This document shows, piece by piece, positions 2,935-34,116 of a DNA stretch of 64,000 nt. This DNA is from Escherichia coli (lineage in GTDB: Bacteria; Pseudomonadota; Gammaproteobacteria; Enterobacterales; Enterobacteriaceae). Where the stretch lies: assembly GCF_003334765.1 (NCBI RefSeq), contig NZ_QOWT01000001.1, one strand, 5' to 3'. Both the position numbers and the translations under genes were made by a program. Position 1 is the first letter of the stretch. Each line of letters opens with the position of its first letter. The notes below the pieces were generated by a model, which saw nothing but the letters and a program-made list of their open reading frames with translations, was not told the DNA's origin and did no database searches.

Positions 2935-3393
2935 TTATTGAGTTGAAACGAGAAGCTTATAAATTTTTTCCAGATCGTCGATATTTCGAACGCGGATTAA
3001 CAGCCGACGCTGTTCTAATTGCATCACCAACACGCCATCTTCCGACAAGTTCATCGCTTTGATTCGGCTATATTCAATCCAGACATTGGCGAAGAAAAAA
3101 CCTTTTTGTTTAAAGATGATCTTCGGAACGCGGATCCAGAATATATAAAAACCCATCAGAGCCAGTGCGCTTAATAACCATGTCGTTATTAACGCACCAT
3201 GATTCGTGACGTTGTTATAGATAAGAATGACAATCAATCCGACGAAGATAACGCTATCGATGCGACCACGCCGGAGCAAAGGAATTGCCAGCAGGGTGGG
3301 GCCGTTACGGCGGGGCATGATGAACTGATCGTAGATCGCGAAGGCCAGGAGTGCGGCGATGAAAAGAATCAGTACCAGGTCCGTGATTGTCAT
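2935..3393 (-). CDS. yobD: Inner membrane protein YobD (DUF986)
   Basis: 152-aa hydrophobic ORF; recognised as K-12 YobD. Confidence 0.85.
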
Positions 3394-27365: not shown

Positions 27366-28073
<708 letters not shown>

Positions 28074-28245
28074 TGCTTTCAGCCCGCGTTGTCGCGGGCT
28101 TCCCATCTATAATCCTCCCTGATTCTTCGCTGATATGGTGCTAAAAAGTAACCAATAAATGGTATTTAAAATGCAAATTATCAGGCGTACCCTGAAACGG
28201 CTGGAATAAACCGTTTTCAGCGCATTCACCGAAGGAGGGAAAAGG

Positions 28246-28605
28246 ATGCTTCAAATCCCACAGAATTATATTCATACGCGCTCAACGCCTTTCTGGAATA
28301 AACAAACTGCACCTGCCGGAATATTCGAACGTCATCTTGATAAAGGAACGCGCCCGGGGGTTTACCCACGCCTTTCCGTTATGCATGGGGCGGTCAAATA
28401 TCTCGGCTACGCTGATGAACACAGTGCAGAGCCTGATCAGGTGATCCTTATCGAAGCGGGGCAGTTTGCGGTGTTCCCTCCAGAAAAGTGGCACAACATT
28501 GAAGCCATGACTGACGATACTTATTTCAACATTGACTTCTTCGTGGCTCCTGAAGTCCTGATGGAAGGTGCGCAACAACGGAAAGTCATTCATAACGGGA
28601 AATGA
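28246..28605 (+). CDS. yeaR: DUF1971 protein YeaR
   Basis: 119-aa ORF recognised as YeaR; 3 bp upstream of yoaG. Confidence 0.88.
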   Translation: MLQIPQNYIHTRSTPFWNKQTAPAGIFERHLDKGTRPGVYPRLSVMHGAVKYLGYADEHSAEPDQVILIEAGQFAVFPPEKWHNIEAMTDDTYFNIDFFVAPEVLMEGAQQRKVIHNGK

Positions 28606-28608
28606 ATC

Positions 28609-28791
28609 ATGGGCAAAGCAACGTATACCGTGACCGTCACCAATAACAGCAATGGCGTTTCTGTCGATTATGAAACAGAGACGCCGATGACTTTGCTGGT
28701 GCCAGAAGTGGCGGCTGAAGTGATAAAAGATCTGGTGAATACCGTACGTTCTTATGACACGGAAAACGAACATGATGTTTGTGGTTGGTAA
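28609..28791 (+). CDS. yoaG: DUF1869 small protein YoaG
   Basis: 60-aa ORF recognised as YoaG; operon partner of yeaR. Confidence 0.85.
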   Translation: MGKATYTVTVTNNSNGVSVDYETETPMTLLVPEVAAEVIKDLVNTVRSYDTENEHDVCGW

Positions 28792-28938
28792 TTATCACTG
28801 ATCGTTGATGGCGCAATTTCTGCGCCATCGCAAAAAAAACCTCCGTGATGCTCGTCACAAATCTTGCCCTCCCGATGTTGTGCTATGCTTTTTATCAGCG
28901 ACTAACCCGCTAATGCAAAACAGATAAGTGAGGAAACA

Positions 28939-29187
28939 ATGGGCATTCTGTCATGGATTATTTTTGGGCTTATTGCCGGTATTCTGGCGAAGTGGATCAT
29001 GCCAGGTAAAGATGGAGGTGGATTCTTTATGACTATCCTGCTGGGGATAGTCGGTGCCGTAGTCGGCGGATGGATCAGCACGCTGTTTGGCTTTGGTAAA
29101 GTCGATGGCTTCAATTTTGGCAGCTTCGTGGTTGCCGTTATTGGTGCGATTGTCGTGCTATTTATCTACAGGAAGATTAAAAGTTAA
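28939..29187 (+). CDS. yeaQ: GlsB/YeaQ/YmgE-family small membrane protein YeaQ
   Basis: 82-aa Gly-rich hydrophobic ORF; recognised as YeaQ. Confidence 0.88.
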   Translation: MGILSWIIFGLIAGILAKWIMPGKDGGGFFMTILLGIVGAVVGGWISTLFGFGKVDGFNFGSFVVAVIGAIVVLFIYRKIKS

Positions 29188-29200
29188 CGCTTAAATTGCA

Positions 29201-29236
29201 CAAAGGCTGCACACAGGCAGCCTTTGCTATTTTTTA
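29201..29236 (+). terminator. Rho-independent terminator of yeaQ
   Basis: Stem caaaggctgc / gcagcctttg around loop acaca, followed by a 6-T run at 29231-29236. Confidence 0.65.
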
Positions 29237-29245
29237 GAGGTGACG

Positions 29246-29320
29246 TTACCACCATCCCAGCTCAGTGCCGAGTACGACAATAATCGCCACACCCATCATA
29301 ATAATCGTTGTTTTTTTCAT
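29246..29320 (-). CDS. yoaJ: Small membrane protein YoaJ (24 aa)
   Basis: Minus-strand ATG (plus cat 29318-29320) to TAA (plus tta 29246-29248) translates to MKKTTIIMMGVAIIVVLGTELGWW; GGAG Shine-Dalgarno upstream; not in track. Confidence 0.75.
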   Translation of the reverse strand: MKKTTIIMMGVAIIVVLGTELGWW

Positions 29321-29322
29321 CT

Positions 29323-29421
29323 TTATGCTCCCGGGGCAGCATAGCCGCCAATAAAAAACCATGCTAAAAATACGACCGCTGTAATGAAGATTACAACCGG
29401 AAAAATAATACCGATTCGCAT
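29323..29421 (-). CDS. yoaK: Small membrane protein YoaK (32 aa)
   Basis: Minus-strand ATG (plus cat 29419-29421) to TAA (plus tta 29323-29325) begins MRIGIIFPVVIFITAVVFLAW; abuts yoaJ; not in track. Confidence 0.75.
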   Translation of the reverse strand: MRIGIIFPVVIFITAVVFLAWFFIGGYAAPGA

Positions 29422-29453
29422 GTTATCACCAATCAAAAGGATGTGAATACGCC

Positions 29454-30481
29454 TCAGGAATGTAGCGCTGGATGCGCGACAAAAGGTGTTTTCTGTTTGT
29501 GTTTTTTCTCCTGATACATCGCAATATCGGCAGCATGCAGGGCACTGTCTGCATCGGTTGTTTCAGGATCGACTTCTACTATGCCAAGACTGGCACCGGG
29601 ATAATACAAATCAACATCACCTAAGTGATATTCTCCACGTATTTGCTGCTGAATGCGTTCTCGCAGCGACGAAATATCCGCATTCTCGTTGTTTAGTGAA
29701 ACAACTAAAAACTCATCACCGCCGAGACGACCAATAACTTCGCCATTTTGCTGGAGCGTATTAAGGCGCTCGCCAACCTGAATGAGAAACAGATCGCCAC
29801 TATTATGACCAAAACGATCATTGATTAATTTGAAGTTATCCAGATCGATAAACGCGATCATTATCTTATGGTTAAGATGCCGGGCGAGGGAAAACAGTGT
29901 CGTCAGATTTTCAAAAATCGCCCGCCGATTCGGTAGCCCGGTTAACGAGTCGGTATACGATTGCGCAATCAGCGCAGCATTGGCTTCGCGCAGCTGTTCA
30001 ACCAGTGCCTCTTTTTGAATATATTGTGCAATCAGTCCGGCGAATAACTGTAAAACCTGTTCCGCGCGTTCACTCCACTGGCGCTTCTCACTGCTGGCGG
30101 CGCAAAGCGTGCCATAGAATGATCCATCCGGTAAGTGAATTGGCGTGCTCAGAAATGTGGTGATGCCAAGATTGCGTGCCGCAATACAGTCACCCCAACG
30201 GTCGGGGACTTCATCGCTGAAAAAGCAGTTTTCATCAATGGCGCGTTTGCATAACGAGTAATCCCACGAGACGGTAAAATTCTCCGGGATGTACATTTTC
30301 TGGCTGTTACGGGCAAACATAATATGCTGCAGGCGCGCTTCGACATCCACTTTGGTCAGGTAGGTTGATTCCATATCAGTGACCATTTCCAGCATCTCCA
30401 GAAGCTGTCGGACCAGACTTTCCAGTGACTGTTCTTTGGCAAGGGATTGCGAGACGCGGGCGATAATCTGATCTGACACGG
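29454..30481 (-). CDS. dgcP: Diguanylate cyclase DgcP (YeaP), GAF-GGDEF
   Basis: Track ORF 29454-30608; start set at the GTG encoding VSDQIIARVSQ (341 aa) per remembered K-12 length; intact GGDEF motif RLGGDEFLV. Confidence 0.82.
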
Positions 30482-30661
30482 AACAACTCCAGGATACGGC
30501 GGGTAAATGCTGATTATTTAATCTTTGCAGGCATGATAAAACATCATCAACAAAGATGAAACAAGACGTAATATGTTTTGAGTGAATGTAATAAAAATAG
30601 TGCTGCAAAACAAAACGATACCGCGATACTCTAATCTTGGATAAATATGTGAGATCAATAA

Positions 30662-30916
30662 ATGAAAATTATCAGTTTTGTTCTGCCTTGCTTGCTGGTC
30701 CTGGCTGGTTGTTCAACCCCTTCTCAGCCAGAAGCACCTAAACCGCCGCAGATTGGTATGGCAAATCCGGCGTCGGTCTATTGCCAGCAGAAGGGCGGGA
30801 CGCTCATTCCAGTGCAGACAGCGCAAGGGGTCAGCAACAATTGCAAATTACCGGGCGGTGAAACGATTGATGAATGGGCATTGTGGCGGCGTGACCATCC
30901 GGCTGGTGAAAAATAA
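30662..30916 (+). CDS. yoaF: DUF333 lipoprotein YoaF
   Basis: 84-aa ORF with signal peptide and lipobox LAGC. Confidence 0.85.
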   Translation: MKIISFVLPCLLVLAGCSTPSQPEAPKPPQIGMANPASVYCQQKGGTLIPVQTAQGVSNNCKLPGGETIDEWALWRRDHPAGEK

Positions 30917-30937
30917 CCGCCGGATGCTGTACTAAAA

Positions 30938-31285
30938 TCACAAGCTACGTAGCCAGTCGGCCAGCACCAGCGCATGGTTCTGCGTGGTGTTTTTTGCTGA
31001 GTAGAGCAGGGTCAGCGGCTGTTTTTTGGCGATGTCCGCCAGCCGCTTTCCTTCTTGCTCGTGTTGCGCCAGTTCTGCAAGATATTGCTCGCGAAAGGTT
31101 GCATAATCGACGACTTCGCCGTGAAAGGCTTTGCGCAGTTCCGTTGACGGCGTGATTTCTTTATCCCACTCATCAAGGGCTAAATCGGTTTTTTTGATAC
31201 CGCGCGGCCAGAGGCGGTCGACCAGTATGCGATAACCATCGCTCTGTTCAGCCGGATCATAAACGCGTTTGCACTGAATATTCAT
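30938..31285 (-). CDS. yeaO: DUF488 protein YeaO
   Basis: Track ORF 30938-31306; start set at MNIQCKRVYD (115 aa). Confidence 0.82.
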   Translation of the reverse strand: MNIQCKRVYDPAEQSDGYRILVDRLWPRGIKKTDLALDEWDKEITPSTELRKAFHGEVVDYATFREQYLAELAQHEQEGKRLADIAKKQPLTLLYSAKNTTQNHALVLADWLRSL

Positions 31286-34011: not shown

Positions 34012-34116
34012 ATGAACGATCAAATGTTTGTCGAGACACTGATTATCACGTCATCGTTTTTTGCCATTGCTGTTGTACTGGTTTTGTCCGTTCTTCTTAT
34101 CGAACGGACCGGCTAG
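34012..34116 (+). CDS. yoaI: Small membrane protein YoaI (34 aa)
   Basis: ATG 34012 to TAG 34114-34116 translates to [34 protein letters not shown]; not in track. Confidence 0.75.

What the first reader, a model, noticed from the sequence alone, without database searches (positions are those of the whole stretch)
29246..29421. Tandem small membrane protein genes yoaJ and yoaK missed by the ORF track
Two back-to-back minus-strand ORFs of 24 and 32 codons (MKKTTIIMMGVAIIVVLGTELGWW and MRIGIIFPVVIFITAVVFLAW...) sit between yeaQ and dgcP. Each is essentially a single transmembrane helix and each has a purine-rich Shine-Dalgarno sequence. They fall below any usual length cutoff and illustrate that the track under-calls small proteins here. 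Both are known K-12 small proteins of unknown function.
Basis: partly seen in the sequence, partly recalled or inferred. Interest (0 to 1): 0.3.

Follow-up and report, generated by a model that had tools for sequence, protein, structure and literature searches.

The report
Known small membrane genes yoaK-yoaJ
The two tiny back-to-back genes are real and are already catalogued as the E. coli small membrane proteins YoaK and YoaJ, so the finding is correct but ordinary; the one new point is that relatives of YoaK sit next to the repressor gene of many temperate phages.

Summary
Confirmed and already known. Window 29421..29323 (-) encodes the 32-aa YoaK. Window 29320..29246 (-) encodes the 24-aa YoaJ. 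They are 2 nt apart and lie between dgcP and yeaQ. Both are base-for-base identical to MG1655 b4676 and b4675 and are annotated in about 5,400 of 5,426 complete E. coli genomes. Both pass their NCBIfam cut-offs.

An ORF this short is not evidence of a gene, so I tested conservation. In 80 Enterobacteriaceae loci yoaK is always present. In 62 of them an exactly 24-codon yoaJ follows at -4 to +3 nt. In-frame pN/pS is 0.18 for yoaK and 0.28 for yoaJ, against more than 1 in the other frames.

The pair persists where dgcP has been deleted (two Salmonella enterica subspecies, some Citrobacter, one Enterobacter strain). It is therefore a unit of its own and does not depend on DgcP.

Published work cited here reports both as tagged proteins, YoaJ in the membrane with its N-terminus inside, and both as weak RseP substrates. 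Their function is unknown. My best inference is a co-produced pair of membrane helices that modulates a larger inner-membrane protein.

A solo YoaK subfamily sits directly downstream of CI-type repressors in lambdoid phages and prophages (56 of 69 viral contigs). This suggests a lysogen-expressed membrane role.

The parts
29323..29421 (-). yoaK (b4676), 32 codons plus TAA. Single-pass small membrane protein MRIGIIFPVVIFITAVVFLAWFFIGGYAAPGA.
   Evidence: Sequence and translation. Identical to MG1655. NCBIfam NF033821, 69.1 bits against a cut-off of 32. Present in 80 of 80 Enterobacteriaceae loci, with in-frame pN/pS 0.18 against 1.6 and 2.7 in the other frames and third-position entropy 1.29 against 0.17 at the second position.
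29246..29320 (-). yoaJ (b4675), 24 codons plus TAA. Single-pass small membrane protein MKKTTIIMMGVAIIVVLGTELGWW, with an invariant G18-x3-G22-W-W C-terminus.
   Evidence: NCBIfam NF011343, 60.4 bits against a cut-off of 54. An exactly 24-codon ORF follows yoaK in 62 of 80 loci. In-frame pN/pS is 0.28 against 1.1 and 2.3 off-frame. K3, T5, A12, G18, G22 and W24 are invariant.
29425..29430 (-). Ribosome-binding site of yoaK: GGUGAU, complementary to 16S rRNA AUCACC, 3 nt before the ATG.
   Evidence: Duplex -8.8 kcal/mol, top 5.5% of ATGs in the window. GGT.AT is invariant in the 7-species alignment. Median -8.3 kcal/mol across 80 loci against a background median of -3.5.
29328..29332 (-). Ribosome-binding site of yoaJ: GGGAG, inside yoaK codons Pro30-Gly31, 7 nt before the ATG.
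   Evidence: Duplex -6.6 kcal/mol. Median -7.8 kcal/mol across 62 loci. The yoaK stop to yoaJ start distance is always -4 to +3 nt, which is the geometry of translational coupling.
29201..29226 (.). G+C-rich hairpin between the convergent genes yoaJ and yeaQ. It is a clear intrinsic terminator for yeaQ (T-run on the + strand) and a weaker one for the dgcP-yoaK-yoaJ transcript.
   Evidence: Terminator scan. Folds of -20.4 and -20.8 kcal/mol with z-scores of -2.6 and -3.3. The stem is conserved across genera.
29454..30479 (-). dgcP (yeaP), a soluble GAF-GGDEF diguanylate cyclase. It is the upstream gene of the same transcription unit in E. coli and ends 32 nt before yoaK.
   Evidence: Annotation. 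Pfam GAF plus GGDEF. An RNA-seq-derived yeaP-yoaK-yoaJ operon is reported in PMC4620388.
29459..29464 (-). Candidate -10 element (TACATT) of an internal yoaK promoter, inside the last codons of dgcP. This is an inference only.
   Evidence: A TAyayT-like hexamer aligns at the same place in many Citrobacter, Enterobacter, Lelliottia and Leclercia loci and in Salmonella enterica subsp. arizonae and diarizonae, including loci that lack dgcP. It is weaker within Escherichia and is not evident in Klebsiella, Raoultella or Kluyvera. No transcription-start data were available.

Best explanation
These are two genuine, translated genes for single-pass inner-membrane peptides. YoaK is 32 aa and YoaJ is 24 aa. 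In E. coli they form the 3' end of the dgcP-yoaK-yoaJ transcript.

Shown here: both ORFs are under strong purifying selection in their annotated frames. Both have conserved ribosome-binding sites. They are kept as a tightly abutted pair, with the yoaK stop and the yoaJ start always -4 to +3 nt apart, across many genera of Enterobacteriaceae.

Taken from the literature: both proteins are detectable when tagged; YoaJ is integral to the membrane with its N-terminus in the cytoplasm; both can be cleaved by the intramembrane protease RseP under some conditions.

Inferred (about 0.35-0.4 for this step): the spacing gives coupled, roughly equimolar synthesis, and both peptides insert with the N-terminus inside. 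YoaK carries R2. YoaJ carries K/R2-K3. Their unusually invariant helix faces are F7-P8, F12, A15, F18-L19, W21-F22 and G25-G26-Y27-A28-x-P30 in YoaK, and A12 and G18xxxG22-W-W in YoaJ. These faces would pack against each other and/or against a larger inner-membrane protein and modulate it. That is how characterised bacterial small membrane proteins such as AcrZ, MgrB, MgtS and CydX work.

The target is unknown. It is not obligatorily DgcP, because the pair survives deletion of dgcP.
For: Identity: the DNA is identical to MG1655 b4676 and b4675. A match is found in 5,419 of 5,426 E. coli genomes, and both genes are annotated in the listed records. Both NCBIfam models score above their cut-offs.

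Coding: in-frame pN/pS is 0.18 and 0.28 against 1.1-2.7 off-frame, with a clear third-position periodicity. Anti-Shine-Dalgarno duplex medians are -8.3 and -7.8 kcal/mol against a background of -3.5.

Pairing: 62 of 80 loci have an intact 24-codon yoaJ, with gaps of 0 nt (30 loci), +2 (20), -4 (8), +3 (2) and -1 (2). Two further loci carry a single frameshift.

Independence from dgcP: yoaK-yoaJ is retained without dgcP in S. enterica subsp. arizonae and diarizonae, in C. sedlakii and C. amalonaticus, and in E. asburiae TN152, while relatives keep dgcP.

Helix conservation: 16 of the first 31 YoaK positions and 8 of 24 YoaJ positions are invariant.

Literature: yeaP-yoaK-yoaJ operon (PMC4620388); tagged YoaK detected at a low level (bioRxiv 10.1101/511675); HA-MBP-YoaJ is membrane-integral, with N-in/C-out topology attributed to Fontaine 2011, and co-precipitates with RseP (PMC4597795); both are class II RseP substrates (PMC10470546); YoaJ is induced by diamide according to Hemm 2010, as cited in PMC12542507.
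Against: No experiment or computation here shows that YoaK and YoaJ touch each other or any partner. No solved structure contains either peptide. The two are not detectably homologous.

YoaK also exists without YoaJ, in Kosakonia, Pluralibacter and other genera and in phages. YoaK therefore does not strictly need YoaJ.

The region is dispensable in at least one strain, which lost yoaK, yoaJ, yeaQ, yoaG and yeaR to an IS1-associated deletion. A published large deletion that included them had no growth cost in minimal glucose medium (PMC9769844).

The primary papers (Hemm 2008 and 2010, Fontaine 2011) could not be read here, so their results are second-hand.
Confidence: 0.85

Rival explanations
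1. YoaK (alone, or with YoaJ) is a membrane effector of phage origin or phage use. The phage version is made in lysogens together with the repressor. It acts at the inner membrane, for example by blocking entry of superinfecting phage DNA or by altering a host membrane protein. The chromosomal yoaK-yoaJ would be a vertically inherited relative that does the same kind of thing.
For: YoaK-family ORFs lie unannotated in phages HK106, mEp234 and mEp506, between cI and hicAB. That is the position rexAB occupies in lambda. Another lies in a Klebsiella phage.

Seventy IMG/VR contigs carry one, with in-frame pN/pS 0.26. In 56 of 69, a same-strand ORF of at least 120 aa ends 12-172 nt upstream (median 17). 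These ORFs fall into at least 5 different repressor families, all matching PHROG repressor models.

The genes downstream are hypervariable and include BstA and other defence-type proteins. This is the known cI-N mosaic hotspot, expressed with the repressor (PMC8585504).

Solo chromosomal YoaK peptides are closer to viral ones (best identity 0.83-1.00) than to paired ones (0.73-0.80).
Against: No phenotype is known. The paired E. coli type sits in a conserved, non-prophage chromosomal context across genera. YoaJ has no phage counterpart. There are no PADLOC or PHROG family hits. Position next to a repressor shows co-expression, not function.
Confidence: 0.18
2. The peptides are dedicated accessories of the diguanylate cyclase DgcP. 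They would recruit or regulate this soluble GAF-GGDEF enzyme at the membrane to give local c-di-GMP signalling.
For: dgcP lies directly upstream, on the same strand, in about 55 of 64 yoaK-yoaJ loci and in one transcription unit in E. coli (PMC4620388). DgcP has no membrane segment of its own.
Against: At least three independent losses of dgcP left yoaK-yoaJ intact. In one Enterobacter locus (L056) the pair lies in an unrelated context. YoaK also occurs alone and in phages.
Confidence: 0.12
3. Their main role is in regulated intramembrane proteolysis. They would act as substrates, decoys or modulators of RseP and so tune the sigma-E envelope-stress response or membrane quality control.
For: HA-MBP-YoaJ co-precipitates with RseP in a manner that depends on the membrane-reentrant beta-loop (PMC4597795). 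Both peptides are cleaved by purified RseP, and each is cleaved in some in vivo formats (PMC10470546).
Against: Cleavage was inconsistent between tags and was not seen with chromosomal RseP levels. Overexpressed YoaJ barely affected RseA cleavage. Many unrelated small membrane proteins behave the same way, which fits housekeeping turnover better than a dedicated role.
Confidence: 0.08
4. They are type I-toxin-like hydrophobic peptides, or chance or regulatory ORFs whose peptide sequence does not matter.
For: They are short and hydrophobic, like Hok, Ldr, Ibs and TisB. Dozens of ORFs of this size occur by chance in the same region.
Against: Amino-acid-level purifying selection is strong and ORF lengths are fixed across genera. 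There is no Rfam antisense or other RNA family within 3 kb and no defence-family hit. The genes are co-transcribed with a housekeeping-type gene, and the cited papers express them from plasmids without reporting the toxicity they describe for HokB.
Confidence: 0.03

Closest known systems
E. coli K-12 YoaK (b4676) and YoaJ (b4675); NCBIfam NF033821 'YoaK family small membrane protein' and NF011343 'protein YoaJ'
   Same: The nucleotide sequence, position and neighbours are identical, and both models score above their cut-offs.
   Different: Nothing differs in these two genes. The window as a whole differs from MG1655 by 2 substitutions in the 8 kb compared, both outside these genes.
Characterised bacterial small membrane protein regulators (AcrZ-AcrB, MgrB-PhoQ, MgtS-MgtA, CydX-CydAB, KdpF-KdpABC); comparison from general knowledge
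   Same: They are 50 aa or less, have one transmembrane helix, lie in the inner membrane and are often encoded in or beside the operon of a larger protein.
   Different: No partner protein is known for YoaK or YoaJ. Here two such peptides are encoded as a translationally coupled pair, and the adjacent large gene (dgcP) encodes a soluble protein and is dispensable for their retention.
Genes of the cI-N immunity-region hotspot of lambdoid prophages, expressed with the repressor (lambda rexAB, BTP1 bstA)
   Same: The solo YoaK subfamily occupies exactly this position, immediately after the repressor gene and on the same strand. It is followed by variable defence-type cargo, including BstA itself (PMC8585504).
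   Different: It is a 32-aa single helix, not a defence enzyme. It sits between the repressor and the variable cargo. No exclusion phenotype is known. The E. coli window copy is the chromosomal, yoaJ-paired subtype and is not in a prophage.

Membership tests
NCBIfam NF033821 (YoaK family small membrane protein) | Full-length match to the 32-position profile above the curated cut-off of 32 bits | tested here: met
   69.1 bits, E 1.8e-19, residues 1-32 on profile positions 1-32
NCBIfam NF011343 (protein YoaJ) | Full-length match to the 24-position profile above the curated cut-off of 54 bits | tested here: met
   60.4 bits, E 1.1e-16, residues 1-24 on profile positions 1-24
E. coli K-12 genes b4676 and b4675 | Same sequence at the orthologous position between dgcP and yeaQ | tested here: met
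   Both coding sequences are identical to MG1655. The surrounding 8 kb is 99.975% identical and collinear.
Bacterial small membrane proteins (50 aa or less, single transmembrane helix) | Length of 50 aa or less with one hydrophobic helix-length segment and charge placement that sets the orientation | tested here: met
   32 and 24 aa. Best 15-residue Kyte-Doolittle means are 3.1 and 2.5. Conserved basic residues occur only at the N-termini: R or K at position 2 of YoaK, K/R2-K3 of YoaJ.
Bacterial small membrane proteins (50 aa or less, single transmembrane helix) | Protein actually made and found in the membrane fraction | not testable with these tools
   Literature only. Tagged YoaK was detected (bioRxiv 10.1101/511675). 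HA-MBP-YoaJ is integral to the membrane, and its N-in/C-out topology is credited to Fontaine 2011 (PMC4597795). The primary papers are not held.
Protein-coding gene under selection | Excess of synonymous over non-synonymous change in the annotated frame only | tested here: met
   pN/pS is 0.18 for yoaK and 0.28 for yoaJ in frame, against 1.1-2.7 in the two shifted frames. Third-position entropy is highest.
Translationally coupled gene pair | Stop of gene 1 and start of gene 2 overlapping or within a few nt, conserved, with the second ribosome-binding site inside gene 1 | tested here: met
   The gap is -4 to +3 nt in 62 of 62 loci with intact yoaJ. The GGGAG or GGGGG site lies inside the last yoaK codons. 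Coupling itself was not measured.
Type I toxin-antitoxin peptides (Hok, Ldr, Ibs, TisB class) | Cis- or trans-antisense RNA antitoxin at the locus, and toxicity | tested here: not met
   No Rfam family on either strand of 28000-31000 at E up to 1. No PADLOC hit. Toxicity is not reported in the papers read. An undescribed antisense RNA cannot be excluded.
Pfam PF28021 (YoaK) | Match to the Pfam profile | tested here: inconclusive
   The Pfam copy available to profile_search returned no significant family. The precomputed label PF28021:YoaK is attached to the homologues P0017 and P0019.

The most novel reading that the evidence does not exclude
The YoaK helix is a mobile membrane 'effector' that temperate phages of enterobacteria express together with their repressor, for instance to exclude superinfecting phage or to retune a host inner-membrane protein in lysogens. 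The chromosomal yoaK-yoaJ pair would be a long-resident relative in which YoaJ evolved as an obligate partner or moderator. Two 'function-unknown' K-12 peptides would then lead to an undescribed component of lysogen biology, conserved next to the repressor gene.
Probability: 0.18. Interest if true: 0.55.

Novelty: already known. Interest (0 to 1): 0.25.

Why it matters
For the window itself this is a correct call of two catalogued genes. It shows that length cut-offs hide real small proteins.

The comparative work adds three points that I did not find described in the papers I could search:

- yoaK-yoaJ is a conserved, translationally coupled unit that outlives its operon partner dgcP.
- The YoaK family splits into a yoaJ-paired chromosomal type and a solo type.
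- The solo type is tightly linked to prophage repressor genes, at the head of the cI-N defence hotspot.

This gives concrete experiments for two peptides that have had no functional lead since their discovery.

Tried and rejected
I used the search of protein representatives for YoaK instead (25 representatives). YoaJ at 24 aa is too short for that tool as well.
- The primary papers (Hemm 2008 and 2010, Fontaine 2011, EcoSal 2020) are not held. Their results are cited second-hand.
- Pfam gave no significant family for YoaK. PDB gave no hit for either peptide at E up to 10. PHROGs and PADLOC gave nothing significant. Rfam gave nothing in 3 kb.
- YoaK and YoaJ show no pairwise similarity, so they are not a tandem duplication.
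- The sigma-70-like site reported at 29447..29420 overlaps the yoaK ATG, is not conserved outside Escherichia, and the scan found fewer sites than its shuffles did (2 against 4.0). I rejected it as chance.
- From memory I expected dgcP to be RpoS-dependent. The literature says it is under vegetative control and expressed in all growth phases (PMC5635695), so I dropped that idea.
- Neighbours of the chromosomal solo yoaK copies showed no consistent partner gene and no adjacent CI-like repressor.
- I did not run AlphaFold on a YoaK-linker-YoaJ fusion. The tool returns no inter-residue contacts, so it could not separate packing from two independent helices.
- I did not attempt a co-variation analysis between the two peptides. 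There are too few independent lineages to control for phylogeny.

Full report
**What is in the window.**

On the minus strand, an ATG at 29421 opens a 32-codon ORF ending with TAA at 29325-29323. It encodes MRIGIIFPVVIFITAVVFLAWFFIGGYAAPGA. Two bases later, an ATG at 29320 opens a 24-codon ORF ending with TAA at 29248-29246. It encodes MKKTTIIMMGVAIIVVLGTELGWW.

Upstream on the same strand is a 341-codon GAF-GGDEF gene at 29454-30479, which is dgcP. Downstream and convergent is yeaQ at 28939-29187 (+). A 10-bp G+C-rich hairpin at 29201-29226 lies between the two small ORFs and yeaQ.

The mechanical ORF list gives longer versions: 38 aa from an ATG at 29362 and 37 aa from a TTG at 29436. It also shows that 41 ORFs of at least 20 aa overlap this 1.7-kb stretch. 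The existence of the ORFs is therefore not evidence of genes.

**Identity.**

Both coding sequences are identical to E. coli K-12 MG1655 yoaK (b4676, 1878773-1878871) and yoaJ (b4675, 1878874-1878948). The window is the reverse complement of that region and is 99.975% identical over 8 kb. The two substitutions fall in nimT and dmlR.

A 371-bp query over the locus matches 5,419 of 5,426 complete E. coli genomes, and 5,398 of them cover at least 80% of it. RefSeq lists 'yoaK: YoaK family small membrane protein' and 'yoaJ: protein YoaJ' under the match in all full-length hits shown.

NCBIfam NF033821 (YoaK) scores 69.1 bits against a cut-off of 32. NF011343 (YoaJ) scores 60.4 against 54. Rfam finds no RNA family within 3 kb.

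**Are they real genes?**

The representative-protein search returned 25 YoaK relatives among 1.84 billion cluster representatives. An alignment of their cores was used to scan one genome per bacterial species. It returned 80 loci. All carry Enterobacteriaceae titles apart from two unclassified 'Proteobacteria bacterium' metagenome bins and one record titled Chryseobacterium that looks mislabelled.

Findings across these 80 loci:

- A yoaK reading frame opens at the match in all 80. It is 31-34 codons long in 79, and the exception (L015) carries a frameshift near its end.
- In 62 loci an ORF of exactly 24 codons ending in G-W/C-W follows.
- The distance from the yoaK stop to the yoaJ start is 0 nt (30 loci), +2 (20), -4 (8), +3 (2) or -1 (2).
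- The relative frame of the two genes therefore changes between species while YoaJ stays 24 codons. The annotated starts are the real ones, not the longer mechanical ORFs.
- Pooled pairwise Nei-Gojobori counts give pN/pS 0.18 for yoaK and 0.28 for yoaJ in the annotated frames, against 1.1-2.7 in the shifted frames.
- Column entropy is highest at third codon positions (1.29 and 1.21 bits) and lowest at second positions (0.17 and 0.29).

Both starts carry anti-Shine-Dalgarno complementarity. For yoaK it is GGUGAU at 29425-29430, with a duplex of -8.8 kcal/mol, in the top 5.5% of all ATGs in the window. For yoaJ it is GGGAG at 29328-29332, with -6.6 kcal/mol. Medians across species are -8.3 and -7.8 kcal/mol against a background median of -3.5. 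The yoaK site pairs with the AUCACC part of the 16S rRNA tail instead.

**Anatomy of the peptides.**

Both are dominated by one hydrophobic helix.

In YoaK, 16 of the first 31 positions are invariant over 80 loci: M1, G4, I5, F7, P8, F12, A15, F18, L19, W21, F22, G25, G26, Y27, A28 and P30.

In YoaJ, M1, K3, T5, A12, G18, G22 and W24 are invariant, and W23 is W in 61 of 62. This gives a G18-x3-G22-W-W C-terminus. Position 20 is almost always Q or E.

Basic residues occur only at the N-termini, which by the positive-inside rule predicts an N-in/C-out orientation for both. For YoaJ that orientation is reported experimentally; PMC4597795 credits Fontaine 2011.

Conservation this tight within a membrane helix points to specific helix-helix packing rather than mere anchoring. 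That is an inference.

**Genomic context.**

In most loci the order is yeaO, yoaF (opposite strand), dgcP, yoaK, yoaJ, yeaQ (opposite strand). An RNA-seq-based resource uses yeaP-yoaK-yoaJ as its example of a newly detected operon in K-12 (PMC4620388). DgcP is reported as vegetatively controlled and present in all growth phases (PMC5635695).

dgcP is missing, with yoaK-yoaJ intact, in:

- Salmonella enterica subsp. arizonae and diarizonae
- Citrobacter sedlakii, C. amalonaticus and a related genome bin
- Enterobacter asburiae TN152

Sister taxa keep dgcP, so there were at least three independent losses. In each case the last roughly 35-70 nt of the former dgcP 3' end remain upstream of yoaK. 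The remnant includes a conserved CCTTTTGTC motif and a TAyayT hexamer about 35-40 nt before the ATG. In E. coli that hexamer is TACATT at 29459-29464. I read this as a possible internal promoter, but I have no transcription-start data.

One Enterobacter genome (L056) carries the pair in an unrelated context.

Sixteen loci carry yoaK alone: Kosakonia, Pluralibacter, several unclassified Enterobacteriaceae, and records titled Enterobacter, Citrobacter and (probably mislabelled) Chryseobacterium. Their neighbourhoods differ from one another.

Rare E. coli strains lack the region. In strain 700481 an IS1 element sits where yoaK, yoaJ, yeaQ, yoaG, yeaR and part of leuE used to be.

**An unexpected relative: phage copies of YoaK.**

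Two distant representatives (P0017 and P0019) are encoded 13-49 nt downstream of CI-type repressors (HTH plus Peptidase_S24) in prophage immunity regions.

A translated search of the phage collection then found a YoaK-family ORF, unannotated, in the lambdoid phages HK106, mEp234 and mEp506. It also found one in Klebsiella phage ST974-OXA48phi18.2, where it is labelled 'CI transcriptional regulator'.

In HK106 the order is PRM, cI, the 32-aa ORF (MRIGIVFPILVFIVAMGFMAWFIIDGYATPSG), hicA, hicB, an unknown ORF, PL and N. This is the slot that rexAB fills in lambda.

A scan of IMG/VR gave 70 viral contigs with 40 distinct peptides. One of the 70 is a chromosomal dgcP locus caught at a prophage edge. 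For the other 69:

- In-frame pN/pS is 0.26, against 1.3 and 1.8 off-frame.
- In 56, a same-strand ORF of at least 120 aa ends 12-172 nt upstream, with a median of 17 nt.
- These upstream proteins fall into at least five families sharing less than 40% identity. All match PHROG 'transcriptional repressor / CI-like' models.
- The genes after the peptide are hypervariable. They include BstA (E 5e-121), RmrA/CapP-like peptidases, a PDC-M66A candidate and HicAB.

This matches the known mosaic hotspot between cI and N. Its genes are thought to share the repressor promoter (PMC8585504).

No YoaJ-like ORF accompanies the viral copies, and YoaJ has no hit in the phage collection.

Chromosomal solo YoaK peptides resemble viral ones (best identity 0.83-1.00) more than yoaJ-paired ones (0.73-0.80). 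The family therefore has a paired chromosomal subtype, which is the one in this window, and a solo, largely phage-borne subtype.

RefSeq already names prophage copies 'YoaK family small membrane protein'. I found no paper in the searchable library that discusses the link to the repressor.

**Function.**

The papers I could read describe both proteins as being of unknown function.

- Tagged YoaK is detectable at a low level in stationary phase.
- YoaJ is said to rise after diamide treatment.
- HA-MBP-YoaJ is membrane-integral, binds RseP and is not cleaved in that format.
- A later screen classes both as 'class II' RseP substrates, cleaved in vitro and in some tagged forms only.
- A large deletion that includes the genes had no cost in minimal glucose medium.

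My best-supported mechanism is a co-produced pair of N-in/C-out helices that bind each other and/or a larger inner-membrane protein and modulate it. It rests on the coupling geometry, the invariant helix faces and analogy with characterised small membrane proteins. I put that step at about 0.35-0.4.

A dedicated DgcP accessory role is weakened by the repeated loss of dgcP. A role centred on RseP is weakened by the inconsistent cleavage. A toxin or non-coding reading is excluded by the selection pattern and the absence of any antisense RNA family. A phage-related membrane function is the most interesting reading that remains open (about 0.18).

**Verdict.**

The feature is already known, so interest is low. 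The side finding on phage-borne YoaK relatives is the part worth a follow-up experiment.

Noticed in passing
L086 2501-2599 (phage HK106, NC_019768 30464-30559); L087 2501-2599 (Klebsiella phage MK448237); viral loci L088-L157: A solo YoaK subfamily is encoded immediately downstream of CI-type repressor genes in lambdoid phages and prophages. This holds in 56 of 69 viral contigs and involves at least 5 repressor families. The ORF sits ahead of hypervariable defence-type cargo such as BstA and HicAB. It is unannotated in HK106, mEp234 and mEp506 and is mislabelled 'CI transcriptional regulator' in the Klebsiella phage.
   Followed up: yes
L028, L036 (Salmonella enterica subsp. arizonae and diarizonae); L010, L014, L015, L017 (Citrobacter); L026 (E. 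asburiae TN152): dgcP has been deleted at least three times independently. yoaK-yoaJ and the last roughly 35-70 nt of the dgcP 3' end are retained each time. In Salmonella, part of the yoaF-dgcP intergenic region (ATATTTATCC.AG.TTA) also remains upstream.
   Followed up: partly
window 29459-29464 (-) and about 29472-29480 (-): A TAyayT hexamer (TACATT in E. coli) and a CCTTTTGTC motif inside the dgcP 3' end align across several genera, including species where the region is no longer coding. This may be an internal yoaKJ promoter. In E. coli the -35/-10 spacing is poor.
   Followed up: partly
L063-L078: Sixteen genomes (Kosakonia, Pluralibacter and others) carry yoaK without yoaJ in several different contexts. 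Some copies lie between a yejM-like gene and an ecotin-like gene. In Kosakonia the copy lies beside Hha-like and RcsA-like regulators and a 310-aa membrane protein.
   Followed up: partly
L010 about 3099-3125; L015 about 3090; proteins P0001, P0002, P0004, P0016, P0024: Single-base frameshifts occur in or near the A7 run at the start of yoaJ (window 29311-29317, ATGAAAAAAAC) and in the G-run at the end of yoaK. They create fused or truncated calls, for example a 57-aa YoaK-YoaJ fusion. These may be sequencing errors or real slippage at homopolymers.
   Followed up: no
L083 (E. coli strain 700481) and L001 3416-5124 (strain 720632): In strain 700481 an IS1 element occupies the place of yoaK, yoaJ, yeaQ, yoaG, yeaR and part of leuE. 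In strain 720632 an IS421 insertion splits yeaR.
   Followed up: no
window 31892 and 26728: These are the only two differences from MG1655 in the 8 kb compared. In MG1655 strand terms both are A to G, at 1876302 in nimT and 1881466 in dmlR. The window is therefore a very close K-12 relative but not the reference sequence.
   Followed up: no
window 34012-34116 (+): yoaI, another annotated small hydrophobic protein (34 aa, [34 protein letters not shown]), lies in the same window. A length cut-off would miss it too.
   Followed up: no
L007 (Escherichia albertii): yeaQ is absent. yoaG follows yoaJ directly, about 60 nt downstream.
   Followed up: no
L077 (record titled Chryseobacterium sp. 18061): This locus carries an Enterobacteriaceae-type solo yoaK whose peptide is identical to that of 'Citrobacter sp. 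18056' (L075) from the same project. The record is probably mislabelled or contaminated.
   Followed up: no
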